Made by a program: the position numbers and the translations under genes. 64,000 nt of DNA, taken from Anaerolineales bacterium UBA5797. Its GTDB lineage: Bacteria > Chloroflexota > Anaerolineae > Anaerolineales > Villigracilaceae. Of this stretch, positions 37,074 through 60,379 are shown piece by piece. Below the pieces are notes generated by a model. It made no database searches. It had not been told where the DNA came from and saw only the letters and a list, made by a program, of their open reading frames with translations. The stretch is from NCBI GenBank assembly GCA_002418205.1, contig DIDP01000008.1, positions 129,123-193,122 of the forward strand, in the 5' to 3' direction. The number at the start of each line of letters is the position of its first letter. The first letter of the stretch is position 1.

Positions 37074-37167
37074 TGGCGGGGAGGACAGGATTCGAACCTG
37101 CGACCGAGGATTTCGCCCCGGTAACCGCTTAGCAGGCGGCCCCATTCGACCACTCTGGCACCTCCCC
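37074..37167 (-). tRNA. tRNA-Ser (anticodon GCU), class II with long variable arm, CCA encoded
   Basis: Hand-folded sequence: GGGGAGG-TG-CCAG..ATGG-G-GCCGC-CTGCTAA-GCGGT-long arm-GCAGGTTCGAATCCTGT-CCTCCCC-G-CCA. Acceptor 7 bp, anticodon loop CU-GCU-AA, T-loop TTCGAAT. Confidence 0.95.
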
Positions 37168-37245
37168 AATGATGTTTGAAGGTGCAAGGTTTACAGGTTG
37201 GCTTGTTCGTAACTTTATACCTTCAACCTGGTAACCTGCAACCGA

Positions 37246-37333
37246 TGGCGGAGGGAGTGGGATTCGAACCCACGTTGGTGTGACCCAAACATGTTTTCAA
37301 GACATGCGCCTTCAGCCGCTCGGCCATCCCTCC
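37246..37333 (-). tRNA. tRNA-Ser (anticodon UGA), class II, CCA encoded
   Basis: Hand-folded sequence: GGAGGGA-TG-GCCG..AGGC-G-CATGT-CTTGAAA-ACATG-variable arm-GTGGGTTCGAATCCCAC-TCCCTCC-G-CCA. Confidence 0.95.
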
Positions 37334-43338: not shown

Positions 43339-44355
43339 ATGGAAATATTGATCACAGGAGTGGCAGGTTTTATCGGATCGAACCTGTCAAAAGGATTGCT
43401 CGAAAGGGGACACTCGGTGGTGGGCTTGGACAACCTCTCCCAGGGATTCCTCCTGAATATCGAGGAGTTCAAAGATCATCCGAAATTCCAATTTGTCGAG
43501 GGAGATGTTCGGGATGACCGTGTTTTGGATGAAATTGCCACCGGATGCGATCTGGTGATCCATCTTGCTGCGTTTAAGATTCCCCGTTATAGCGATGCAT
43601 TGGACACACTGCTGATTAATTCGATGGGCACAAAGGTAGTCCTGGATGCAGCGGTTAAGAACAAGGTTGCCAAGGTCATGATCGCCTCGACCTCGGATGT
43701 ATATGGCAAGAATCCAGCTGTGCCCTTTTCGGAAGACTCTGATCTAGTAATTGGCCGGCCGGAGGTCAAGCGCTGGTCTTATGCAATCTCCAAAATGTTT
43801 GAGGAGCAACTGGTCTTTGGTTACCATGAGCGACATGGAATCCATGCTGTTGCCTTGCGTTTCTTCGGTGGATACGGACCCAACCAGCATCTGACGTGGT
43901 GGGGAGGTCCCCAGTCGGTGTTCATCAGCGCCGCCCTCGACGATGAGCCGATCACATTGCACGGGGATGGGATGCAGACCCGCTCCTTTACATACATCAG
44001 CGATCACGTTGACGGGATCATTGCCTGCGCTGAAAAGGATGATGCAAATAACCAGGTATTCAATATCGGCAATACAAATGAGATCACGATCAGGGACCTT
44101 GGGATGAAAATCTGGAAAATGATTCGGCCAGACAGCAAGCCCAAGCTGTCTCTGATCCCATACGAGACCTTTGGTAAATATGAAGATGTTCAACGGCGGA
44201 TACCGAACATTGAGAAGGCGCATACTTTGCTTGGCTTTAAGCCTAAGGTGGATCTGGATGCCGGGTTAAGGAAAACGATCCTGTGGCAGGTCCAACGCCG
44301 GCGGGCGCTTGGCATGGAAACGCCTGATGTCCCGATTGAGAGATCGCTTCCATGA
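43339..44355 (+). CDS. NAD-dependent epimerase/dehydratase (extended SDR, UDP-glucuronate decarboxylase-like)
   Basis: Start at MEILITGVAGFIGSNL (GxxGxxG). Catalytic YAISK. The track start is TTG 43324. Confidence 0.9.
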   Translation: MEILITGVAGFIGSNLSKGLLERGHSVVGLDNLSQGFLLNIEEFKDHPKFQFVEGDVRDDRVLDEIATGCDLVIHLAAFKIPRYSDALDTLLINSMGTKVVLDAAVKNKVAKVMIASTSDVYGKNPAVPFSEDSDLVIGRPEVKRWSYAISKMFEEQLVFGYHERHGIHAVALRFFGGYGPNQHLTWWGGPQSVFISAALDDEPITLHGDGMQTRSFTYISDHVDGIIACAEKDDANNQVFNIGNTNEITIRDLGMKIWKMIRPDSKPKLSLIPYETFGKYEDVQRRIPNIEKAHTLLGFKPKVDLDAGLRKTILWQVQRRRALGMETPDVPIERSLP

Positions 44356-45140
44356 ACAAATTGTTTGTCTTGATTCCCATTCTCAACGAAGCGGGAAATA
44401 TTGTCAGGCTTCTGGATGGCCTGAGGAATCTGTCCACGGAGTTGCAAAACAAATGGGATGTCCAGGTTGTATTGGTGGATGACGGCAGCCGAGATCAGAC
44501 TTCCTCGCTCGCACAGCAAACAGCCAAGGATACAGGCCTCCGATTAACTGTGCTCAAGCACGAGACGAACCATGGTCCTGGCAAGGCATTTGCCACGGGA
44601 TTTAGTCACCTTGCTACTGCCCTTGGCAAAGATGACCTGGTGGTGACCATGGAAGGGGACAACACCTCCCGGCTGGAATTGGTCAAGCAGATGCTGGTTC
44701 GCATGAATGAGGGCTATGATTTTGTTCTTGCAAGCCCGTATATGTACGGAGGCAAGATCATAAATACCTCAGCCTACCGGATTTTTCTCAGCAGCGTTGC
44801 CAATCTATTTATTAAGGAATTTCTCGGCATTCATGGTATCCTGACCGTCAGTTCCTTCTTTCGCCTCTATCGATCGACTGCATTAAGAAGGCTACAGGAT
44901 GTTTACGGATCTGGTATTGTCGAACGAACCGGATTTGAATGCATGGTCGAGATGATCATGAAGATCATGTATTTACAGATGACCATCTCGGAAGTGCCAA
45001 TGATTCTGGATACCCATGTCCGGGTGGGGAAGAGCAGGATGAAGATCATGAAGACGATCCGGGGCTACTTTAATCTGTGGTTTTATAGAAAGAGATGGCT
45101 TGAAATGGCGGCCCGCCAGAAAAAAGGCCTCCTTGAATAG
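44352..45140 (+). CDS. Family 2 glycosyltransferase, polyprenol-phosphate sugar synthase (DPM1/ArnC-like)
   Basis: 262-aa ORF with an ATGA overlap onto the SDR gene. VLIPILNEAGNI...VVLVDDGSRDQT...MEGDN (DxD-type). Confidence 0.85.
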   Translation: MNKLFVLIPILNEAGNIVRLLDGLRNLSTELQNKWDVQVVLVDDGSRDQTSSLAQQTAKDTGLRLTVLKHETNHGPGKAFATGFSHLATALGKDDLVVTMEGDNTSRLELVKQMLVRMNEGYDFVLASPYMYGGKIINTSAYRIFLSSVANLFIKEFLGIHGILTVSSFFRLYRSTALRRLQDVYGSGIVERTGFECMVEMIMKIMYLQMTISEVPMILDTHVRVGKSRMKIMKTIRGYFNLWFYRKRWLEMAARQKKGLLE

Positions 45141-45265
45141 CGCCAGTACATGAATAACTGTCAACAAATCTTGAGATGAGCCTATTCATGCACTTCGCAT
45201 CTCAAATCTGCTGGCTTAAAACCTCTTTAATCCCAGCTCCCGACCAGCATGAATCCTGACACACT

Positions 45266-45274
45266 TGGTATAAT
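45266..45274 (+). promoter_or_regulatory. Extended -10 promoter (TGgTATAAT) placed for near-leaderless miaB transcription
   Basis: TGGTATAAT at 45266..45274, then 9 nt (TCACCCCCT) with no SD, then ATG at 45284. Confidence 0.45.
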
Positions 45275-45283
45275 TCACCCCCT

Positions 45284-46621
45284 ATGAAATACCACATCTG
45301 GACCGAAGGATGCCAGATGAACGTGGCCGACTCACAACGCGTCGGCTCGTCTCTTGAGCATCTGGGATACACCTTTACCGATAAAGCCGAAGAAGCAGAC
45401 GTTATTGTTTTGAACACCTGCGTCGTGCGTCAATCTGCGGAGGACAAGGCGCTCGGACGCCTTTCCAGCCTGCTTCCGTTAAAACGACAGAATCCCAACC
45501 TTGTCATCAACCTGATGGGATGCCTCGTCGGCGTGCGTGGTGCGGAAAAACTGCGAGAAAAACTCCCCTACGTGGACGTCTTCTCGCCGCCCTCCGACCC
45601 GGGACCGCTGGTCTCGTTCCTCACGCAGGGCGAGATCCGTTCGCTGGAGGATACCGAAACGACGCGCCGCTTCCTCATGATGGACGACGAACTCATCCTG
45701 CCGCAGCACGAACGTGGACAACTGGTCAGCGCACACGTGCCGATCGTGTATGGCTGTTCGCACGCCTGCACCTTCTGCATCATCCCGTTCCGACGCGGCA
45801 TCGAACGCAGCCGCCCGGTGGTCGATATCGTCTCCGAGATCCGTTCGCTTGCCGTTCAGGGTGTCAAAGAGATCACTCTGCTCGGTCAGATCGTGGATCG
45901 CTACGGCAAGGATATCCCCGATGGCCCCAATCTTGCAGGTCTGCTGCGTGTGGTGCATGAAGTGGAAGGCATTGAACGTATTCGTTTCTTAACCTCACAC
46001 CCGAATTATTTTGGCGAAGATTTGATGGAAGCCGTTGCAGAGCTTCCCAAAGTGATGCCGCATATCGAAGTTCCCATTCAGGCGGGGGACGATGGGGTGT
46101 TGGCGAACATGAAGCGCGGCTATACCCAAATGGAATACCGCGACCTCGTGGACCTCATCCGCAAGAAAATCCCCGACTGCTCCATCGCAACGGATATCAT
46201 CGTGGGCTTCCCCGGCGAAACCGAGGAACAGTTCATGGAAACTTACCGCGTCCTCGCGGACCTGAAACTGGACGTCGCGCATTTGGCCCGTTACTCCTCC
46301 CGCGAAGGGACCGTCGCCACGCGCCGCATGGAAGACAACGTGACCGACGAGGAAAAAATGCGCCGCTTCCGCATGTTGGAAGAGTTGCAGGAAGGGATCG
46401 TCGGCGAGATCAACAAGAAGTATCTCGGTCAAACCGTGGATGTGTTGTTCGAGGAAAAGGTCAAGAACCGTTGGAAGGGACGCACCCCCACGAACAAACT
46501 GGTCTTCGTCGAATCGGACGAAGACCTGAAAGGCAGACTCCTGCCGGTCACCGTCACGTGGACGGGACCGTGGTCCATGCAGGCCAATCTGCAAAAACAG
46601 CCTGATTTGATTCGTGTGTAG
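45284..46621 (+). CDS. miaB: tRNA-i6A37 methylthiotransferase
   Basis: 445-aa ORF. N-terminal UPF0004 cysteines (TEGCQMN, LNTCVVR, GCLVG), radical SAM CSHACTFC and a C-terminal TRAM domain. Confidence 0.9.
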   Translation: MKYHIWTEGCQMNVADSQRVGSSLEHLGYTFTDKAEEADVIVLNTCVVRQSAEDKALGRLSSLLPLKRQNPNLVINLMGCLVGVRGAEKLREKLPYVDVFSPPSDPGPLVSFLTQGEIRSLEDTETTRRFLMMDDELILPQHERGQLVSAHVPIVYGCSHACTFCIIPFRRGIERSRPVVDIVSEIRSLAVQGVKEITLLGQIVDRYGKDIPDGPNLAGLLRVVHEVEGIERIRFLTSHPNYFGEDLMEAVAELPKVMPHIEVPIQAGDDGVLANMKRGYTQMEYRDLVDLIRKKIPDCSIATDIIVGFPGETEEQFMETYRVLADLKLDVAHLARYSSREGTVATRRMEDNVTDEEKMRRFRMLEELQEGIVGEINKKYLGQTVDVLFEEKVKNRWKGRTPTNKLVFVESDEDLKGRLLPVTVTWTGPWSMQANLQKQPDLIRV

Positions 46622-46651
46622 AGCGAGAGACCATCTCGCTCTACTTTTTTT
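46618..46651 (+). terminator. Rho-independent terminator of miaB
   Basis: 11-bp perfect stem GTAGAGCGAGA / TCTCGCTCTAC, loop GACCA, then T7. The TAG stop codon (46619..46621) lies in the 5' arm. Confidence 0.9.
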
Positions 46652-46717
46652 GGGGAATGAGAAGCGCTCAATCGACTGAAGATGGTTTCCAACCTCAATG
46701 ATTTATCGCTTCGCGGG

Positions 46718-48316
46718 TTATTTTTTTACAGGGAACCAGCGTTGGATGTCACGCCTGTTCAGAAAGAAGAAGAACGCCATTGCGGTGATCCCAAGGAAGT
46801 AGATCAAAAATGGCAGGAAGGACGCGACGCTGGTCTGTAAATTGTTGCCGGCGGCTTGCAGTTCCGAATCCGCATCCAGTGAGAGGCTGAATTGCCATAA
46901 GGTCAATATTCCAATTCCGAAAAATCCGGCTACCACCCATTTGAACGAGGAAAACCATCCAGTGCGTCGTGTGATTCCACGGAGCATCAGGTAGAGCAGG
47001 ACAAGGAAGACGATCCCATGGAAGATCAACCCGAAGAACACATTCCCGAACATGTTGTCGGACAGACTCAATAAGGCATCCAGGGACGTTTCGAAATATT
47101 TGTAGGAACTCCCGATGGTGAATGCACCCAGGAAGATCAGGAAGTAATACATGGTGGTGATGATCGGGGAATAAACCGTCTGGGAACTGACGGGTCGCAT
47201 GCCCAGCGCCTTGAGTAATTTGGATGGTTCCGGCAGTAACTTTGCAATCACATCCAGTTTCCGGACGCCCGGGCGGAAATCGATCCATTGAAGTTTTGAC
47301 AGCTTCTCCGCCAGGTTGGGGTTGGTCTGGATAAGGACGGGATAAACGACTTGTTTTTCGGGGTCAGCCTCAGTGTCCGATTTGAAGCGGGAGATCAGGA
47401 CAAATACCGCTTTTGCGCTGTGGATGTCCTGTGTGAGGATATGTCTGTGTGCTTTGAGAGCGGCGATCAAATCCTCAGCGGCGTGCCGGTCCTGGATAGC
47501 ATAATCCACGAAAAAGGAGACGGGCGCAGGTGCAAGATCATCCGGTTTGTATGGGTTTGCGAATTTTCTCATGTTCGCCTCCGGTTTGCCCCATCGCTGT
47601 AAAGCCGGGGAGCGGAGGACGAAGAAAAGTAGAAGCCCCGCAATGACGGAGATAAATATGTAGACGATCAACCTGTCGAGGTTGTTCGTTTCTGATTCGG
47701 TGATCACCGCTTCGAAGAACAATGAAAACGGAAGCATGAGCAGGGCGGCCTGCACCTGGGCAAAATTGAAGCTTCGTTTAAAAATGCGGTATGGGAGAGG
47801 AATGAGAATCCATGGCAGGAATAATGTCCATAATAACGGCAGGGTGCAGATGGCTGTGACAACGCTGACTGCAATGGTGAACCAGACGATCAGCGGCGCC
47901 TTGAACCCGGTCTCAGGGACGGGATGCTCCTCCCGAATGGGTTGTTTGAGTTGGGAAAATAGTTCCTGCAACCCAGCCTTGTAACTGCCACGGAAATCCA
48001 CCCATTCGTATTTTTCCAACTCCTTTGGCAGATCTACAGCCTCGAAGATCAGGAGGATGACGCGCTTGTTTGTTTCGAGGAAGTGTTGCCATTCCAATGT
48101 TACGTATTTTGAAGCCAGGGAAGCCTTCGACACGACCAGAAGAACCGTATCCGAGTTGTTCAACCCCTTGTCGATCTGCTCCTTCCAAGGAGTACCCGGA
48201 ACGAGGACGCGATAATCGAGCCAGACGTTGTACCCTTCGCCCTCAAGTTTGCCGACGAGGTCGTCCACGAAGCCCAATTCGCGGCGGGAATAGCTCATAA
48301 AGATGTTTTGGGTCAT
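46718..48316 (-). CDS. Membrane protein with two tandem TIR-domain plus transmembrane-block modules
   Basis: 532-aa ORF with AGGAG RBS. The N-terminal TIR_2-like pattern IFMSYSRRE..FV..L...L...GY.VWLD......G..W...I.....SD.VLLVVS..SL.S.YV..EW includes a conserved Glu (aa 75). A second, degenerate TIR-like region follows (aa about 272-375). Each is followed by about 4 hydrophobic helices. Confidence 0.8.
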   Translation of the reverse strand: MTQNIFMSYSRRELGFVDDLVGKLEGEGYNVWLDYRVLVPGTPWKEQIDKGLNNSDTVLLVVSKASLASKYVTLEWQHFLETNKRVILLIFEAVDLPKELEKYEWVDFRGSYKAGLQELFSQLKQPIREEHPVPETGFKAPLIVWFTIAVSVVTAICTLPLLWTLFLPWILIPLPYRIFKRSFNFAQVQAALLMLPFSLFFEAVITESETNNLDRLIVYIFISVIAGLLLFFVLRSPALQRWGKPEANMRKFANPYKPDDLAPAPVSFFVDYAIQDRHAAEDLIAALKAHRHILTQDIHSAKAVFVLISRFKSDTEADPEKQVVYPVLIQTNPNLAEKLSKLQWIDFRPGVRKLDVIAKLLPEPSKLLKALGMRPVSSQTVYSPIITTMYYFLIFLGAFTIGSSYKYFETSLDALLSLSDNMFGNVFFGLIFHGIVFLVLLYLMLRGITRRTGWFSSFKWVVAGFFGIGILTLWQFSLSLDADSELQAAGNNLQTSVASFLPFLIYFLGITAMAFFFFLNRRDIQRWFPVKK

Positions 48317-48433
48317 GGTCTGCTCCTAATTTGGCAATTGGCAAACATAAACAACGAACAATGAAACCCGCCGGAGTGGGTTTCGTTTCGGTCTTGGCTG
48401 ATTTTGGCAGGGTACCAAGTGTCCGATATCAGG

Positions 48434-48943
48434 CTAGAACACAAAGTATCTTGCGGTTGCCATGAAGATCATGGCGAGGATCATGCTATATACATGAAAG
48501 GGGGAGACAGTTTTTATCCTCTTTTGGATGGCCTGGATTTGAGAGAGTTGCTCGCCGGTCGGTTTCCCCTGAATTTGTGAACTTACCATGGCAAGTTTGG
48601 CATTACTGGCTCCAAAGATGGCGCCAAATACAAATGCGATAAGACCGAATGTGGCGCCAATCGTAAACCCGATGCCCGTATTCGACTTTATCCAGGCGGA
48701 GGTAAATCCGTCAGAGTCATGCCAGTAGAGCAGGGCACCTGCAAGGATCGTGGAGAGTGCCATGGCTGTCATGAATTTATGCATGCGCAGGCGGACCAAC
48801 AGGTATTGCGCGAACTCTTTTCCCGATTCACCGGTGGCGGCGATGGAGCGACCGATAAAGAACTCCATAATCAAGGCGCCGCCTCCCCAAATGATCCCTG
48901 TGACGATGTGAACCAGCCGCAGGACGAGCAGATAAACGCTCAT
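48434..48943 (-). CDS. Four-helix membrane protein, function unknown
   Basis: Start re-picked at MSVYLLVLRLVH, with GAAGGAG upstream; the track start is 48961. Four hydrophobic helices. Confidence 0.6.
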   Translation of the reverse strand: MSVYLLVLRLVHIVTGIIWGGGALIMEFFIGRSIAATGESGKEFAQYLLVRLRMHKFMTAMALSTILAGALLYWHDSDGFTSAWIKSNTGIGFTIGATFGLIAFVFGAIFGASNAKLAMVSSQIQGKPTGEQLSQIQAIQKRIKTVSPFHVYSMILAMIFMATARYFVF

Positions 48944-48977
48944 TTCATACTCCTTCATCACCGATAATTTTGACTAC

Positions 48978-49009
48978 AAAAAAACGAAACCCGCATAAAC
49001 GGGTTTCGT
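48978..49009 (-). terminator. Rho-independent terminator of acnA
   Basis: 10-bp stem ACGAAACCCG (48984..48993) / CGGGTTTCGT (49000..49009). The minus-strand transcript continues with U7. Confidence 0.85.
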
Positions 49010-49039
49010 TTCGACCAAATTGGAGAAATCCGAGGCAAA

Positions 49040-51733
49040 CTACTTGACCAAATTCCTCAACACCGTATGGAGGATGCCTCCATTGCGATAGTAGTTCACT
49101 TCCACCTCGGTGTTCAGCAGGGCGGTGACCTTGAACTCGAACGAAGAGCCGTCAGCTCTTGTGGCTTTCACATTTAGAACCGGCTTGGGTGACATCTCAT
49201 CGGTCAGTCCCGTGATGTCATAGACTTCGTCGCCTTTTAAGCCAAGCGTCTCGGCATTCTGGCCGTCCATGAAGGTCAATGGCAGGATGCCCATGCCCAC
49301 CAGATTCGAGCGGTGGATGCGCTCGAACGATTCGGCAATGACGGCTTTCACACCCTGCAGGTTGGGTCCCTTTGCCGCCCAGTCGCGGCTGGAGCCGGTG
49401 CCGTATTCCTTGCCCGCGATAACAATGCACGGCATGCCCTCCTCTTTGTATTTCATCGCCGCATCATAGATGCTCATTTCTGCTCCATCAGGGAAGTGTT
49501 GGGTCAGGTTCCCCTCCTTCGGTTCGACGAGCAAATTCTTCAGGCGGATGTTCGCGAACGTACCACGCGCCATTACCAGGTCATTGCCGCGGCGCGAACC
49601 GTATGAATTGAAGTCCCTGGGCTGGACGCCGCGTTCCTGCAGATATCTTCCTGCCGGGCTGTCGGCTGCAATGTTGCCTGCCGGTGAAATATGGTCGGTC
49701 GTGATCGAGTCGCGGAACATCCCCAGCACGCGCGCACCTTTGATATTGCCGACAGAAGGCAGGTCGAGATTCAACGTTTGGAAGTAGGGTGGGTGATGGA
49801 TATAGGTTGAAGCCTCATCCCATTCGTAAATGTCGCCGCCAGAGACCTTGATCTCCTTCCACATGTCCGAACCTTCGAACACGCTGGCATAGCGATCCTC
49901 AAACATCTTCACATCCAGGCTGGAGGCGATGGTTTCGGCGATCTCCTTTTGTGTGGGCCAGATGTCCCTGAGATAAACGGGACCCTCCGTCCCTTCGCCG
50001 AGCGGTTCCTTGTCGAGATCAATATCGACGGTTCCAGCCAGAGCGTAGGCAACGACCAGTGGAGGCGAGGCGAGGAAGTTCGCCTTGACCAGGGGATGGA
50101 CGCGCCCCTCGAAGTTGCGATTCCCTGAAAGGACTGCCGCGGCGACGAGATCGCTTCCCGTCACAGCCTTCGCAACTTCTCCCGGAAGTGGACCTGAGTT
50201 GCCGATACAGGTGGTGCAGCCATAGCCGACAATGTTAAAGCCGAGCTGCGCCAGCGGGTCGATCAGGTTTGCCTGTTTGAGATATTCGGTGACCACGCGT
50301 GAACCGGGCGCGAGGCTCGTCTTCACATACGGCTTGACGTTCAGCCCTTTTTCGAGCGCCTTCTTCGCAAGCAGACCCGCGCCGACCATCACCGTGGGAT
50401 TTGAAGTGTTGGTGCAGGAGGTGATCGCGGCGATGACGACCGCGCCGTGCTTCATCTTCATCGAGCCGCCGTTCGTCCCGAACGTGGCTTCGGTGTTCAA
50501 GGCTTCGGGTTTGAGTTCAAAGCCGCGTTCTTTGACAGGTGCAACGAGCGTCCTCTGGAATGTCTCTTTGAGTTCAGACATTGGCACGCGGTCCTGCGGA
50601 CGCTTGGGTCCGGCTAATGAGGGCACAACAGACCCAAGGTCCAGTTCGAGCGTATCGGTGAAGTCAGGATCAGGCGTGGAGGAGTCGCGGAAGAGTCCCT
50701 GGGTTTTCATGTAGGCTTCGGTGCGCTCGATGACTTCCTTTGAACGTCCCGTGAGTTTCATGTAGCGCAGCGTCTCCGCATCCACAGGGAAGTAGCCCAT
50801 CGTCGCGCCATATTCGGGAGCCATGTTGGCAATGGTGGCGCGGTCGGTAAGGGACATGCTGTCGAGACCTTCGCCATAAAACTCGACGAATTTATCTACC
50901 ACGCCTTTCTTGCGCAGCATCTGCGTGACGGTGAGCACGAGGTCCGTCGCAGTGACGCCATCGCGCAGTTTGCCATGGATCTTGAAGCCGATCACATCGG
51001 GCAGGAGCATGTCCATGGGCTGACCGAGCATGACCGCCTCGGCTTCGATGCCGCCCACGCCCCAGCCAGCCACCCCGAGACCGTTGATCATGGTGGTATG
51101 TGAGTCAGTGCCAACGAGCGTATCAGGGAAGGCAAGGGTCTCCGTGCCTTCGAGTTTTGCCATGACCACACTGGCAAGGTATTCCAGGTTGACCTGATGG
51201 ACGATGCCCGTCATCGGCGGGACGACCCGGAAATTGGTAAAGGCGCTTTGTCCCCATTTGAGGAATTCGTAGCGTTCACGGTTGCGCTGGAACTCAACCT
51301 CGGTATTGCGTGCCAGCGCGTCGGCTGTGGCGAAGAAATCCACCTGGATGGAATGGTCGATGACCAGGTCCACAGGCACAAGCGGATTGATCTTCTTCGG
51401 GTCGCCGCCGAGACGTGCCACTGCGGAGCGCATCGCGGCGAGGTCGACGACCGCGGGCACACCGGTGAAATCCTGCATCACCACGCGCGCCGGCAGGAAG
51501 GGGATGCCGGGGCGTGTGCCTTTGGCGGTCCAGGCGGCGATATTCTTTACGTCTGCCTGGGTGATTTCCTTGTCGTTGCATTGACGGAGTGCCGCCTCGA
51601 GCACGATGCGGATCGAAAACGGAAGCCGCTTGAGGTCCGTGAGACCCGCTTTTTCCAGGGCATCGAGGCGGTAGATGACGTACTCTTTATCCCCAACTTT
51701 CAAAGTGTTGCGTGCTTTAAAGAAATCGTTCAT
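49040..51733 (-). CDS. acnA: Aconitate hydratase A
   Basis: About 897 aa. Fe-S ligand motifs [11 protein letters not shown] and [12 protein letters not shown]. Start at [11 protein letters not shown], with AAGGAG upstream; the track start is 51760. Confidence 0.95.
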
Positions 51734-51843
51734 AGGATACTCCTTTGGTGATTTGCCCACACCAATGAGGTGGGGGATTTGTCACCACAGCCGTGCGAAA
51801 GACATAAAGGAGCGCCTTTTCTATCCTTGCTGTGTGGTGCGGT

Positions 51844-52884
51844 TTACATTTTCAGGTCTGTCTTGAGGAGTTGGATCAACTTATTCTTTTCGTCCTCAGG
51901 CAGAAAGCCGGCTTGTGCCGCGGCGACGATTCTCTCTTTCAAGGTAAATTGCGGCATTTGCAGATCTTCGCAGGCGGTATAGTATTCGTGACTCAGTGTG
52001 ATGCGGGAGATGCTCGGGTCATCTGTGTTGATGGTCACGTTCAGGCCGTTCTCGAACATCTTCATCAACGGATGGGTATCGAGCGATTCGACCACGCCCG
52101 ATTGATAGTTGCTGGTGATGCAGACTTCAAAAGCCGTGCCGCGTTCCCGGGCGAGCGCGATGATCTTATCGTCTTCCAGCACGCGCACGCCATGACCGAT
52201 CCGTTCCGTGCCGAGTTGTTCGATGGCTTCCCGGATATGTTCCGCCGGTCCCCACTCACCTGCATGGATGGTCACGTGCAGACCTGCCTGCCGGGCTTCC
52301 TTGAATATGCCGAAGAACGGCTCGGTTGGAAATTCCGCTTCGTTGCCAGCCAGATCGAGCGCGACCAGCCCGTCCTTGACATGCTCTGCCGCCAGCCAGG
52401 CAACCTGCTCTGCAAGTTCGGTGCTCTCGTGCCTGTTGACCGAGGCGATCAATTTCACGTTGATGTTATATTTGCCGGCGGTCTCCCGGGCGCTGGTAAT
52501 GACCCAGTCGATCACATCGTGCAACGGGAAGCGTTCCGCCCGGCTCAAAGCCACAGGCGTGAAGCGCAGTTCCAGATATTTCACATTGTCCTTGACCGCG
52601 TCCTCGATGGCTTCGCGCGTGATGCGATGGATCACATCGGGGGAACGATAGAACAATCTTAACGTATTGAATTTTGAAAGGAAATTCTGGAAGGTGAATT
52701 TATCCTCTTCCTGGATCTGGACCAGCGTACTCAGCCTCAACACGTCCGCGGGAATGGTGATGCCGTGTTGCTTCGCAACCTCGACCATCGTATCCAGCCG
52801 CAACGAACCCTCCAAATGGCGGTGCAATTCCACCTTTGGGAGCGCACGGTACGTGTTGAGGGAAGCTGTGACTCGTTCCTTCAT
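51844..52884 (-). CDS. add: Adenosine deaminase
   Basis: 346-aa ORF. VELHRHLEGS, HAGE (TIHAGEW) and TINTDDP metal/catalytic motifs. Confidence 0.9.
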   Translation of the reverse strand: MKERVTASLNTYRALPKVELHRHLEGSLRLDTMVEVAKQHGITIPADVLRLSTLVQIQEEDKFTFQNFLSKFNTLRLFYRSPDVIHRITREAIEDAVKDNVKYLELRFTPVALSRAERFPLHDVIDWVITSARETAGKYNINVKLIASVNRHESTELAEQVAWLAAEHVKDGLVALDLAGNEAEFPTEPFFGIFKEARQAGLHVTIHAGEWGPAEHIREAIEQLGTERIGHGVRVLEDDKIIALARERGTAFEVCITSNYQSGVVESLDTHPLMKMFENGLNVTINTDDPSISRITLSHEYYTACEDLQMPQFTLKERIVAAAQAGFLPEDEKNKLIQLLKTDLKM

Positions 52885-59245: not shown

Positions 59246-60379
59246 TTACGGCCGTTCGCCGAGTGTGATCGTCACATCCACAGTTTGACCATCCCGCAGA
59301 ACGGTCAGCACCACCGTATCACCCGGGGATTTGTTGACGATGAGGTAACTCAATAACTGGTCGAAGGTTGAGATCGGTTTGCCGTCGAAGGCGACGATCA
59401 GGTCGCCGCCCGCGTTCAGACCCTGGAGTCGTGTGGGGGTTGTGCCTGCCCTTATGCCAGCCTTGTCTGCAGGACCTCCCGACGCAACATCGAGCACATA
59501 GGCGCCAGTATAGGTGTTCAATCCCAATGCTTCGATCTCGTTCAGGCTGAGGTCGCTCGAGGAAGTGATCCCCAGATAGGGATACTTGTATTCCCCGTCA
59601 CGGATCAACACCGGGACGACGCGCTTGACCAGGTTGATCGAGACAGAAAACCCGACACCCGAATTGACGGCATTGCCGGTCACCTGGTTGAAGCTTTCCG
59701 TGCGAATTGACTGGTTGATCCCGACCACTTCACCGTTCAAATTGAATAACGGACCACCTGAGTTGCCGGGGTTGATCGCCGCGTCGGTCTGGATGATATC
59801 GGCGGTGCTGAAGAAGCCTCCGCCGCCCGGCGCCTGGTGCGCGGGCTGTGTCCTCCCGAGTCCGGAGATGATGCCAAGTGTCATCGTGCCGCTCAAGCCA
59901 AAGGGATTGCCGATCGCAACGACCGGCTGACCGACATTGAGCAGATCGGAATTACCGATATTAAGCGGGTGGATCTGTTCGGTAGGCGCGTCCACTTTGA
60001 TCACTGCAACGTCGGCATCCGCGTCGGAGCCGATGACCGTGCCGTAGGCTTTATAGCCCGATGCGAAGGAGACCTCAACGGTGCCCGCACCTTCGATCAC
60101 ATGCTGGTTCGTGACAACATGACCTTCATTGTCGAACACAAAACCGGAGCCAAGACTGCCGTTATCCGTTCCTATTGCGACAACGCCCGGAAGCACATTT
60201 TGATAGAGCACCTCGAGCGAGCCATCCAGCGGGATGGTTGTCTCGGATTGCACTCGAAGGGTGGGAACGGCCTGGACCGCTGGTGAAGGCGTCGGTTGGG
60301 AAAGAGGCGTGAGTCCGGGGAGTTGGCACGCCAGGATCGCAAAGGTCAAGACCAGAATTGCCGAAATGATTCTTTTCAT
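59246..60379 (-). CDS. htrA: HtrA/DegP-family serine protease with PDZ domain (lipoprotein-type signal)
   Basis: 377-aa ORF. Triad context TNQHVI, DADVAVIKV and GNSGGPL. C-terminal PDZ (GAYVLDVASGGPADKAGI). Lipobox FAILAC. Confidence 0.9.
   Translation of the reverse strand: MKRIISAILVLTFAILACQLPGLTPLSQPTPSPAVQAVPTLRVQSETTIPLDGSLEVLYQNVLPGVVAIGTDNGSLGSGFVFDNEGHVVTNQHVIEGAGTVEVSFASGYKAYGTVIGSDADADVAVIKVDAPTEQIHPLNIGNSDLLNVGQPVVAIGNPFGLSGTMTLGIISGLGRTQPAHQAPGGGGFFSTADIIQTDAAINPGNSGGPLFNLNGEVVGINQSIRTESFNQVTGNAVNSGVGFSVSINLVKRVVPVLIRDGEYKYPYLGITSSSDLSLNEIEALGLNTYTGAYVLDVASGGPADKAGIRAGTTPTRLQGLNAGGDLIVAFDGKPISTFDQLLSYLIVNKSPGDTVVLTVLRDGQTVDVTITLGERP

What the first reader, a model, noticed from the sequence alone, without database searches (positions are those of the whole stretch)
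46718..48316. Monocistronic membrane protein made of two tandem TIR-plus-transmembrane modules
Seen in sequence: aa 1-125 fit the bacterial TIR_2 pattern, including the S-x-Y-V-x-x-E-W block with the Glu that is catalytic in TIR NADases (aa 75). About four hydrophobic helices follow. The whole module then repeats. A second TIR-like region starts at about aa 272 (SFFVDYAIQDRHAAEDLIAALKAH aligned against NIFMSYSRRELGFVDDLVGKLEGE). Both TIR regions end W(V/I)DFR(G/P), and both TM blocks end (L/I)QRW. The second copy has lost the Glu-containing segment. The gene has its own RBS. It is bracketed by a hairpin upstream (48363..48384) and by convergent miaB with a strong terminator. It is also visibly more AT-rich than miaB and acnA. 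There is no ThsA, SIR2, Macro or STING-type partner, so it is not a canonical Thoeris or CBASS locus. A membrane-embedded pseudo-dimeric TIR could be a self-contained NAD-depleting or signal-generating defence or stress sensor. I am not aware of a described system with this architecture.
Basis: partly seen in the sequence, partly recalled or inferred. Interest (0 to 1): 0.72.

Follow-up and report, generated by a model that had tools for sequence, protein, structure and literature searches.

The report
Membrane protein with TIR and pseudo-TIR
This gene encodes an eight-helix membrane protein of Anaerolineales bacteria that carries one apparently active TIR (NAD-cleaving type) domain and one degenerate copy of it, an undescribed arrangement of a well-known immune/signalling enzyme domain that is inherited like an ordinary chromosomal gene, not a mobile defence island.

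Summary
ORF 46718..48316(-) encodes 532 aa.
- Residues 5-119 match Pfam TIR_2 at E=3e-31, and Glu75 is invariant in every homologue examined.
- Four TM helices follow, then a second soluble domain (aa 267-362), then four more TM helices.
- The second domain is a degenerate TIR: HHalign to TIR1 gives E=4e-12 (reversed control 0.23), and its AlphaFold model's top 23 PDB hits are all TIR domains. It has lost the BB-loop and the Glu-bearing helix.
- Homology of the two TM blocks is not demonstrable; they share only the helix count and a terminal QRW motif.
- Charge distribution puts both TIR domains in the cytoplasm.

The context changes the interpretation.
- The family is confined to Anaerolineales MAGs.
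- The gene sits at a syntenic position after SecA-adenosine deaminase-aconitase, and its divergence tracks that of aconitase.
- Its GC3 is native, it is absent from phages and plasmids, and it has no conserved partner gene.
- It does show two or three paralogues per genome, tandem duplication and hypervariable outer loops.

Most likely it is a membrane-gated TIR NADase in which the pseudo-TIR acts as a built-in regulatory partner. Whether it serves defence or physiology is open. I rate it a new variant of a known kind, of moderate interest.

The parts
46718..48316 (-). Complete ORF of 532 aa: TIR, 4 TM helices, pseudo-TIR, 4 TM helices
   Evidence: ORF; 566 homologues, the best 120 nearly all full length; AF2 model pLDDT 80.3, pTM 0.74.
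47945..48307 (-). TIR1 (aa 4-124), the catalytically plausible TIR_2 domain
   Evidence: Pfam TIR_2 E=3.1e-31. Foldseek hits to SPARTA TIR-APAZ, Hydra TRR-2, SARM1, MAL and MyD88 TIRs. Best PDB sequence hit is 8qlo_A. Most conserved large region of the protein, 0.84.
48092..48094 (-). Codon of Glu75, the putative catalytic glutamate
   Evidence: Invariant in 121/121 and 40/40 homologues. Aligned to a Glu of the SPARTA TIR in 8qlo_A. That this position is the catalytic Glu of TIR NADases rests on established knowledge, not on a test here.
47615..47893 (-). TM block 1 (aa 142-234), four helices including the Pro/Trp-rich conserved TM2 (WTLFxPWxLxPLPY)
   Evidence: Hydropathy; AF2 helices 142-157, 159-179, 185-205 and 210-234; conservation.
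47591..47599 (-). First Q-R-W motif (aa 240-242), a juxtamembrane cytoplasmic helix after TM4
   Evidence: R241 and W242 are invariant in the close set and 37/40 in the diverse set. The post-TM4 linker has conservation 0.84.
47231..47518 (-). Pseudo-TIR (aa 267-362), a degenerate TIR fold lacking the BB-loop and the Glu-bearing alpha-C
   Evidence: HHalign vs TIR1 E=4.3e-12, probability 97.6%, reversed control 0.23. AF2 of the domain alone gives pLDDT 87.6, and its top 23 Foldseek PDB hits are TIR domains. TIR_2 reaches only 21.5 bits.
46760..47167 (-). TM block 2 (aa 384-519), four long helices and the most variable part of the protein
   Evidence: AF2 helices 384-415, 420-450, 458-488 and 496-519. 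Conservation 0.43-0.58. No PDB or Pfam match.
46736..46744 (-). Second Q-R-W motif (aa 525-527) after TM8
   Evidence: W527 is invariant in both alignment sets.
48323..48327 (-). Shine-Dalgarno AGGAG, 6 nt upstream of the ATG
   Evidence: Sequence read directly.
48363..48384 (-). Hairpin between the upstream 175-aa membrane-protein gene and the TIR gene, a possible weak terminator of the upstream gene
   Evidence: 7-bp stem, 4 GC pairs; centroid fold. The whole intergenic region is not unusually structured (z=-1.2).

Best explanation
The gene encodes a lineage-specific (Anaerolineales) inner-membrane TIR enzyme. Its layout is N-in: cytoplasmic TIR1 of the SPARTA-like TIR_2 type with an intact catalytic Glu, four TM helices, a cytoplasmic pseudo-TIR that has lost the BB-loop and the catalytic helix, then four more TM helices.

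I infer that it is a membrane-gated NAD+ glycohydrolase or ADP-ribosyl cyclase. TIR catalysis normally needs TIR-TIR assembly. Here the eight-helix membrane part, coupled through the very conserved juxtamembrane linkers, would control whether TIR1 is held by its built-in inactive partner (off state) or can pair with TIR1 domains of neighbouring protomers (on state). The output would be NAD+ depletion or an ADPR-derived signal in response to a perturbation sensed within or at the membrane.

Shown: the domain identities, the topology, the conservation pattern, chromosomal vertical inheritance with paralogue turnover, and the absence of a partner gene.

Inferred: the enzymatic activity, the regulatory role of the pseudo-TIR, the trigger, and whether the biological role is anti-phage abortive infection or envelope-stress or cell-fate signalling in these filamentous bacteria.
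For: Identity of TIR1 and its catalytic residue.

The pseudo-TIR is a true TIR paralogue with specific loss of the BB-loop and the Glu segment.

Topology: in the query, cytoplasmic loops carry 21 K+R and predicted periplasmic loops carry 0. The family means are 17.8 vs 1.35. There are 4+4 helices.

Conservation: the cytoplasmic TIR1 (0.84) and juxtamembrane linkers (0.84-0.90) are the most conserved parts. Outer loops are the least conserved, at 0.36-0.43 in the close set and 0.12 in the diverse set.

Architecture: it is retained in about 60 clusters at 50% identity, down to about 29% identity, even where the TM blocks have diverged beyond profile recognition.

Stand-alone unit: upstream neighbours vary, being Acn, a divergent TetR, a divergent Band7 or mp175, so the gene has its own promoter. 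No gene co-occurs with it universally.

Family dynamics: two or three paralogues in at least 10 MAGs, tandem copies in L038, L044, L061 and L063, and loci where Acn is about 80% identical but the TIR-TM protein only 45-49% identical. These are typical of sensor or immune gene families.

Related system nearby: one paralogue group lies next to a SLATT plus TPR-S pair.
Against: No biochemical evidence exists.

The neighbourhood is housekeeping (SecA, adenosine deaminase, aconitase, MiaB, LepA), and inheritance is vertical. That is atypical for abortive-infection genes and fits a physiological role equally well.

PADLOC and NCBIfam hits are confined to the TIR domain and fall far below system-level cut-offs.

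The regulatory role of the pseudo-TIR is argued by analogy only. I could not inspect inter-domain contacts or PAE in the model.

The short, non-conserved outer loops argue against a specific extracellular ligand, so the trigger is unknown.
Confidence: 0.5

Rival explanations
1. It is a chromosomally fixed single-gene anti-phage abortive-infection protein. Phage-induced membrane events (holin or pinholin action, injection, depolarisation) release TIR1 to deplete NAD+ and kill or arrest the infected cell, protecting the filament. This is the defence-specific version of the best explanation.
For: TIR NADases with an intact Glu are overwhelmingly defence-linked in bacteria; single-gene TIR systems and TIR systems with TM components do defend. 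The closest characterised TIR is that of SPARTA. The family shows paralogue birth-and-death, tandem arrays and variable outer loops. One paralogue group lies next to SLATT plus TPR-S.
Against: The window copy and its orthologues are not in defence islands. There are no PADLOC hits in 10 neighbours other than a protease-domain match. Synteny with housekeeping genes is stable and GC3 is native. There are no relatives on phages or plasmids.
Confidence: 0.35
2. It is a physiological (non-immune) membrane signalling enzyme or NAD+ regulator. It would couple envelope or membrane state to NAD+ or ADPR-derived second messengers, for example for dormancy, stress adaptation or programmed cell death within multicellular filaments.
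For: Inheritance is vertical and the slot among core genes is conserved. There is strong purifying selection on all cytoplasmic parts. There is no mobile-element signature. The family is restricted to a filamentous lineage.
Against: The gene evolves faster than its neighbours (45-85% vs 78-89% identity). Paralogue turnover and tandem duplication are unusual for a housekeeping regulator. No bacterial TIR has an established housekeeping role (own knowledge).
Confidence: 0.3
3. It is a self-contained Thoeris-like circuit in one polypeptide. TIR1 would make an ADPR-derived signal, the pseudo-TIR would bind it, and the TM bundle would act as the pore or effector that collapses the membrane.
For: Thoeris effectors with TM helices that respond to TIR-made nucleotides are now numerous. 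The dead TIR is conserved at 0.69 and tightly linked to TM block 2 by an invariant linker, KALGMRPVSS.
Against: The pseudo-TIR has lost exactly the BB-loop and alpha-C segments that shape the nucleotide pocket. No known signal receptor is a TIR fold in the papers read. The TM part matches no known pore family. A cis-fused producer and receptor would lack the amplification logic of Thoeris.
Confidence: 0.1
4. It is a non-enzymatic scaffold. The TIR domains would serve only as protein-protein interaction modules, as in animal TLR adaptors, organising a membrane complex.
For: Fold matches include the adaptor TIRs MAL, MyD88 and TIRAP. One of the two TIRs is certainly non-catalytic.
Against: Glu75 and the surrounding S-x-x-V-x-x-E block are invariant across the whole family, down to about 29% identity. 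That is hard to explain without catalysis. No conserved partner protein exists to be scaffolded.
Confidence: 0.07

Closest known systems
TIR domain of SPARTA TIR-APAZ proteins (short prokaryotic Argonaute systems), e.g. PDB 8qlo, 8isy, 8oz6
   Same: It is the closest characterised TIR by sequence (8qlo_A, E=1e-3 over aa 5-135), by PADLOC profiles (Aga_TIR-PNTD1-PNTD2, E=3e-16) and by fold. The Glu is shared, as is the C-terminal 'DLP.E...VDF....GL..L' stretch. The SPARTA TIR is an NADase switched on by oligomerisation.
   Different: There is no APAZ domain and no Argonaute neighbour. Here the TIR is fused to eight TM helices and a pseudo-TIR, and activation cannot be nucleic-acid guided.
Thoeris (ThsB TIR plus ThsA-type effector), including the newer types with TM effectors
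   Same: Both have a TIR with a catalytic Glu, and membrane-spanning components take part in several Thoeris types.
   Different: This is a single gene with no effector gene. ThsB_TIR matches only 45 residues at 22 bits, and NCBIfam ThcB4 gives 27.5 bits against a cut-off of 220. The TM helices are in the same polypeptide as the TIR.
Rst_2TM_1TM_TIR and single-protein TIR/TM defence candidates from E. coli screens
   Same: They combine a TIR with membrane-spanning segments in an anti-phage context.
   Different: Rst_2TM_1TM_TIR splits the parts over three genes in phage or satellite hotspots. None is described with an internal pseudo-TIR or a 4+4 TM layout. This family is chromosomal and restricted to Anaerolineales.
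Paired active/inactive TIRs such as plant RPS4/RRS1 (PDB 4c6t)
   Same: A signalling-competent TIR is partnered with a degenerate TIR that restrains it. 4c6t appears among the pseudo-TIR fold hits.
   Different: The plant pair is two separate NLR proteins. Here the pair is intramolecular and separated by a four-helix membrane block. The regulatory role here is an inference.
SARM1 (autoinhibited TIR NADase)
   Same: It is a TIR NADase kept off by an intramolecular regulatory domain and switched on by a conformational change and TIR-TIR assembly. It is a fold match.
   Different: SARM1 is regulated by ARM and SAM domains and is soluble or mitochondria-associated. It has no pseudo-TIR and no polytopic membrane domain.

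Membership tests
TIR domain superfamily (Pfam PF13676 TIR_2 / PF01582 TIR) | Profile match above the curated gathering score | tested here: met
   TIR_2 gives 108.8 bits vs 28, and TIR gives 26.8 vs 21.3, for aa 5-119.
TIR domain superfamily (Pfam PF13676 TIR_2 / PF01582 TIR) | Flavodoxin-like TIR fold | tested here: met
   Foldseek of the AF2 model has solved TIR domains as its top hits, with probability 1.0 and TMt up to 0.87.
Catalytic (NADase) TIRs | Conserved catalytic glutamate in the S-x-[aromatic]-x-x-x-E block | tested here: met
   The S69-K-Y-V-T-L-E75 block is present. E75 is invariant in 161 sequences and aligned to a Glu of the SPARTA TIR.
Catalytic (NADase) TIRs | Measured NAD+ cleavage dependent on that Glu | not testable with these tools
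   This needs an enzyme assay of wild type vs E75A.
Second domain as a TIR | Profile match above the Pfam gathering score | tested here: not met
   It scores 21.5 bits vs 28, covering only profile positions 81-111.
Second domain as a TIR | Homology to a bona fide TIR by profile-profile comparison and by fold | tested here: met
   HHalign vs TIR1 gives E=4.3e-12, with a reversed control of 0.23. The top 23 Foldseek PDB hits are TIR domains, with E from 1e-3 and TM mostly 0.5-0.56.
Second domain as a TIR | Catalytic Glu and BB-loop present | tested here: not met
   Both segments are deleted in the alignment to TIR1, so the domain is a pseudo-TIR.
Thoeris | ThsB-type TIR protein reaching the family cut-off | tested here: not met
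   NCBIfam ThcB4 gives 27.5 bits vs 220. PADLOC ThsB hits have E of 7e-5 or worse.
Thoeris | Adjacent effector gene (SIR2/SLOG, Macro-TM, or another ThsA-type) | tested here: not met
   None is present in the window or in the orthologous loci.
SPARTA / short pAgo systems | APAZ domain fused to the TIR, and a short pAgo gene adjacent | tested here: not met
   PADLOC Aga_TIR profiles match only the TIR part, profile positions 17-133 of 443. The neighbours are Acn, mp175 and MiaB.
CBASS / Pycsar TIR effectors | Signal-sensing domain (SAVED, STING, cNMP-binding) and a cyclase gene nearby | tested here: not met
   The SAVED_TIR profile matches the TIR only. No such Pfam domains are present, and there is no cyclase among the neighbours.
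Rst_2TM_1TM_TIR | Three separate genes (2TM, 1TM, TIR) in phage or satellite hotspots | tested here: not met
   This is a single gene in a housekeeping context, absent from phage records. I did not run the system's own profiles by name.
Internal duplication of a whole TIR+TM module | TM block 1 homologous to TM block 2 | tested here: inconclusive
   HHalign gives E=2e-3 over 20 columns, with reversed controls of 3e-3 to 5e-2. The blocks share only the helix count and the terminal QRW motif.

The most novel reading that the evidence does not exclude
An order-wide, vertically inherited membrane TIR machine that carries its own dead-TIR partner. It would be a core-genome, single-polypeptide immune or cell-fate switch of filamentous Chloroflexota, in which an eight-helix membrane sensor directly gates NAD+ cleavage or signal production. 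This would be a bacterial analogue of a TLR-like 'membrane receptor with cytoplasmic TIR' built on enzymatic rather than adaptor logic.
Probability: 0.25. Interest if true: 0.75.

Novelty: new variant of a known kind. Interest (0 to 1): 0.5.

Why it matters
Bacterial TIR enzymes are central to current work on immunity and NAD+ signalling, but nearly all studied examples are soluble proteins in mobile defence operons. This family offers three things:
- A TIR hard-wired to a polytopic membrane domain.
- A naturally occurring intramolecular pair of active and dead TIRs, useful for asking how TIR-TIR contacts switch catalysis.
- A case where a TIR gene behaves as a stable chromosomal gene with paralogue turnover across a whole order of filamentous, environmentally abundant bacteria, including Ca. 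Villigracilis of activated sludge.

If it is an NADase gated by membrane state, it would extend the known triggers of TIR activation. It would also be a tractable single-gene system.

Tried and rejected
1. Foreign origin from AT-richness: rejected. GC3 equals that of the neighbours.
2. TM block 1 and TM block 2 as homologous repeats: not supported beyond composition controls.
3. NUDIX as a functional partner that degrades ADPR: rejected. It is present in only 8 loci, always directly downstream of miaB on the opposite strand, and absent from the window.
4. The upstream 175-aa membrane protein (mp175) as a partner: rejected. It is present in 8 loci only and has no family.
5. The Band7/SPFH protein as a partner: rejected. 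It occurs in 17 loci with variable side and orientation, and is absent from the window.
6. A known family for the membrane part: none found. Pfam DUF6803 gives only E=0.3, and Foldseek and PDB return nothing beyond TIR.
7. A riboswitch or known RNA upstream: none. The 5' intergenic fold is unremarkable.
8. A sigma-70-like promoter on the gene's strand: none was found by the simple scan. This is uninformative for Chloroflexota.
9. Phage or plasmid carriage: none for the full architecture.
10. C-terminal-half-only proteins in the representative search: nearly all begin at their residue 1-4 and align to internal query positions, so they are read as truncated gene calls, not as a separate family.
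11. Literature search for '2TM-1TM-TIR' as a literal string found nothing. The system name was found as Rst_2TM_1TM_TIR.
Full report
**1. What is in the sequence**

The minus-strand ORF 46718..48316 encodes 532 aa. An AGGAG lies 6 nt before the ATG. A 7-bp hairpin at 48384..48363 separates the gene from an upstream co-directional 175-aa membrane-protein gene. Convergent miaB ends in a strong terminator at 46618..46644. No Rfam family lies in 44000-52000.

**2. The N-terminal TIR**

- Pfam TIR_2 matches aa 5-119 at E=3.1e-31 (108.8 bits; gathering score 28), and PF01582 also passes its cut-off.
- An AlphaFold2 model built on 58 homologues has pLDDT 80.3 and pTM 0.74. Its significant PDB matches are TIR domains: SPARTA TIR-APAZ, Hydra TRR-2, SARM1, MAL and MyD88.
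- By sequence, the nearest solved protein is the BabAgo SPARTA TIR-APAZ chain 8qlo_A (aa 5-135), where Glu75 aligns to a Glu.
- PADLOC agrees, with Aga_TIR profiles at E=3e-16 that cover the TIR part only.
- Glu75, Ser69 and Val72 are invariant in 121 close and 40 diverse family members.

**3. The second soluble domain is a degenerate TIR**

- Alone, it scores below the Pfam threshold (21.5 bits).
- Using close homologues only, profile-profile comparison matched just the last 31 residues.
- With a 40-sequence alignment that includes representatives down to about 29% identity, HHalign of aa 1-135 against aa 262-380 gives probability 97.6% and E=4.3e-12 over 100 columns. The reversed-sequence control gives E=0.23.
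- Each domain's HMM also cross-hits the other domain in several family members.
- Modelled alone (pLDDT 87.6, pTM 0.83), its top 23 PDB matches are TIR domains: TcpB/BtpA, TIRAP, PdTIR, SPARTA, BtTir and AbTir. The scores are modest, with E from 1e-3 and TM mostly 0.5-0.56.
- Relative to TIR1 it lacks aa 31-47 (the BB-loop region) and aa 72-80 (the Glu-bearing helix). It is therefore a pseudo-TIR.
- Both domains keep a near-invariant W-[VI]-D-F-R strand.

**4. The membrane parts**

Hydropathy and the model give four helices after each soluble domain.

In the query, the proposed cytoplasmic loops hold 21 Lys+Arg and the proposed outer loops hold none. Family means are 17.8 vs 1.35. The topology is therefore N-in with eight TM helices, and both TIR domains are cytoplasmic.

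The two blocks each end in Q-R-W. W242 is invariant in the close set and 37/40 in the diverse set, and W527 is invariant in both. Their sequence similarity (HHalign E=2e-3 over 20 columns) is no better than reversed controls (3e-3 to 5e-2). Duplication of the whole TIR+TM module is plausible but unproven.

No Pfam, NCBIfam or PDB family matches the membrane part.

**5. Conservation pattern**

| Region | Conservation |
|---|---|
| TIR1 | 0.84 |
| Juxtamembrane linkers (PVPETGFKAP; QRWGKPEA; KALGMRPVSS) | 0.84-0.90 |
| Pseudo-TIR | 0.69 |
| TM helices | 0.43-0.76 |
| Short outer loops, close set | 0.36-0.43 |
| Short outer loops, diverse set | 0.12 |

Selection therefore acts mainly on the cytoplasmic machinery and on its coupling to the membrane helices. 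TM2 has an invariant Trp/Pro-rich motif.

**6. Family and context**

The word-indexed search found 566 relatives. The best 120 are nearly all full length (485-563 aa) at 56-99% identity, from Anaerolineae/Chloroflexota MAGs, and are named only 'TIR domain-containing protein'.

The exhaustive search shows the same four-part architecture in about 60 clusters at 50% identity. It persists even where the TM blocks no longer match my profiles.

In species-representative genomes, 77 loci were found, almost all in Anaerolineales and including several Ca. Villigracilis. Clustering of flanking ORFs shows one orthologue group directly downstream of SecA-adenosine deaminase-aconitase in 32 loci. Small variable genes may be inserted between aconitase and the TIR gene. 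The far side carries either (NUDIX-)MiaB or LepA-LPG synthase-epimerase. The precomputed annotations agree.

Evidence that the gene is an old chromosomal resident:
- Identity of the TIR-TM protein to the window copy correlates with identity of the adjacent aconitase (Pearson 0.70, p=2e-4, n=23). The TIR-TM protein evolves faster, at 45-85% vs 78-89%.
- GC3 equals that of the neighbours.
- There is no integrase or tRNA at the locus.
- There is no phage hit, and plasmid hits cover the TIR domain only.
- Ten window neighbours give no defence-system hit except a protease-domain match.

The family is nonetheless dynamic:
- At least ten MAGs have two or three loci.
- True tandem copies occur in L038, L044, L061 and L063.
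- In L062, L067 and L080 the aconitase is about 80% identical but the adjacent TIR-TM protein only 45-49% identical. This suggests differential retention of paralogues.
- Other paralogue groups have their own conserved contexts. One of them lies one gene away from a SLATT_1 protein and a TPR-S protein, on the opposite strand.

No gene accompanies the family universally. Several upstream neighbours are divergent, so the gene is an independent transcription unit.

**7. Interpretation**

Shown:
- The protein is an eight-TM membrane protein.
- It has a cytoplasmic, catalytically plausible SPARTA-like TIR.
- It has an internal pseudo-TIR.
- It is encoded by a stand-alone, vertically inherited gene with paralogue turnover.

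Inferred: it is a membrane-gated NADase or ADPR-signal generator. Established knowledge is that TIR NADases such as SARM1, SPARTA, AbTir and ThsB need TIR-TIR assembly for activity. The built-in dead TIR is therefore best read as a regulatory or scaffolding partner. The invariant juxtamembrane linkers would be the transmission elements.

I give about 0.5 to this mechanism as a whole. The domain-level description is near certain. Defence and physiological signalling remain roughly balanced as roles. A non-enzymatic scaffold is unlikely, given the invariant Glu.

**8. Comparison with known systems**

The protein fails the membership tests for Thoeris, SPARTA, CBASS/Pycsar effectors and Rst_2TM_1TM_TIR. 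In each case the partner genes or fused sensor domains are absent. TIR-plus-TM combinations are known in defence screens. I found no description of a TIR-4TM-pseudoTIR-4TM protein in the papers searched. The literature search is limited to open-access text.

Verdict: this is a new variant of a known kind, of moderate interest.

Noticed in passing
L031, L036, L039, L042, L047, L082 (e.g. L042:8103-10496(-) and L031:6392-7720(-)): One paralogue group of the TIR-TM family has a conserved neighbourhood: M50-like TM protein, methyltransferase, deoxynucleoside kinase, TIR-TM, a 156-aa unknown protein, then on the opposite strand a 797-aa TPR-S protein (PF20308, E=3e-15), a 442-aa SLATT_1/DUF4231 protein (E=2e-19) and a Peptidase_C39_2+SH3 protein. 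A conflict-type SLATT/TPR-S pair therefore sits one gene away.
   Followed up: partly
P0160, P0161, P0180, P0173, P0183 and about 40 more proteins: The nearest TIRs outside the family are giant proteins (900-2300 aa) with 3-7 tandem TIR_2 domains followed by a single TM helix and, in P0160, C-terminal WD40 repeats. This is a striking multi-TIR array architecture.
   Followed up: partly
P0148 (841 aa): One relative has TIR1 plus TM block 1, followed not by the pseudo-TIR but by nine RHS repeats and DUF7948. It is either a real fusion with a polymorphic-toxin-type module or an assembly chimera.
   Followed up: no
window 48434..48961 (-): A 175-aa predicted membrane protein lies directly upstream, co-directional, with no Pfam, NCBIfam or PADLOC family. 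Homologues occupy the same position in 8 of the loci, including the window (cluster 11).
   Followed up: partly
L038:4298-7596, L044:2542-7590, L061:5890-9341, L063:4291-7665; L062, L067, L080: Tandem full-length paralogues occur at the same slot. There are also loci where aconitase is about 80% identical to the window's but the adjacent TIR-TM protein is only 45-49% identical. Together these suggest birth-and-death evolution at a fixed locus.
   Followed up: partly
L010 (Syntrophothermus sp. MAG), L046 (Blastocatellia MAG), L049 (Herpetosiphon sp. MAG): Contigs labelled as non-Anaerolineales carry the family. L010 and L049 also show the aconitase-linked synteny. These are probably binning contaminants, not horizontal transfer.
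   Followed up: no
window 59246..60379 (-): A 377-aa protein hits the protease part of the PADLOC RT-Protease_XI profiles (E=9e-15) and weakly LmuA. It is most likely an ordinary trypsin/HtrA-like protease domain, not a defence gene.
   Followed up: no
window 37074..37333 (-): Two adjacent tRNA-Ser genes (GCT and TGA anticodons) lie about 9.4 kb from the TIR gene. No integrase-like feature was noted beside them.
   Followed up: no
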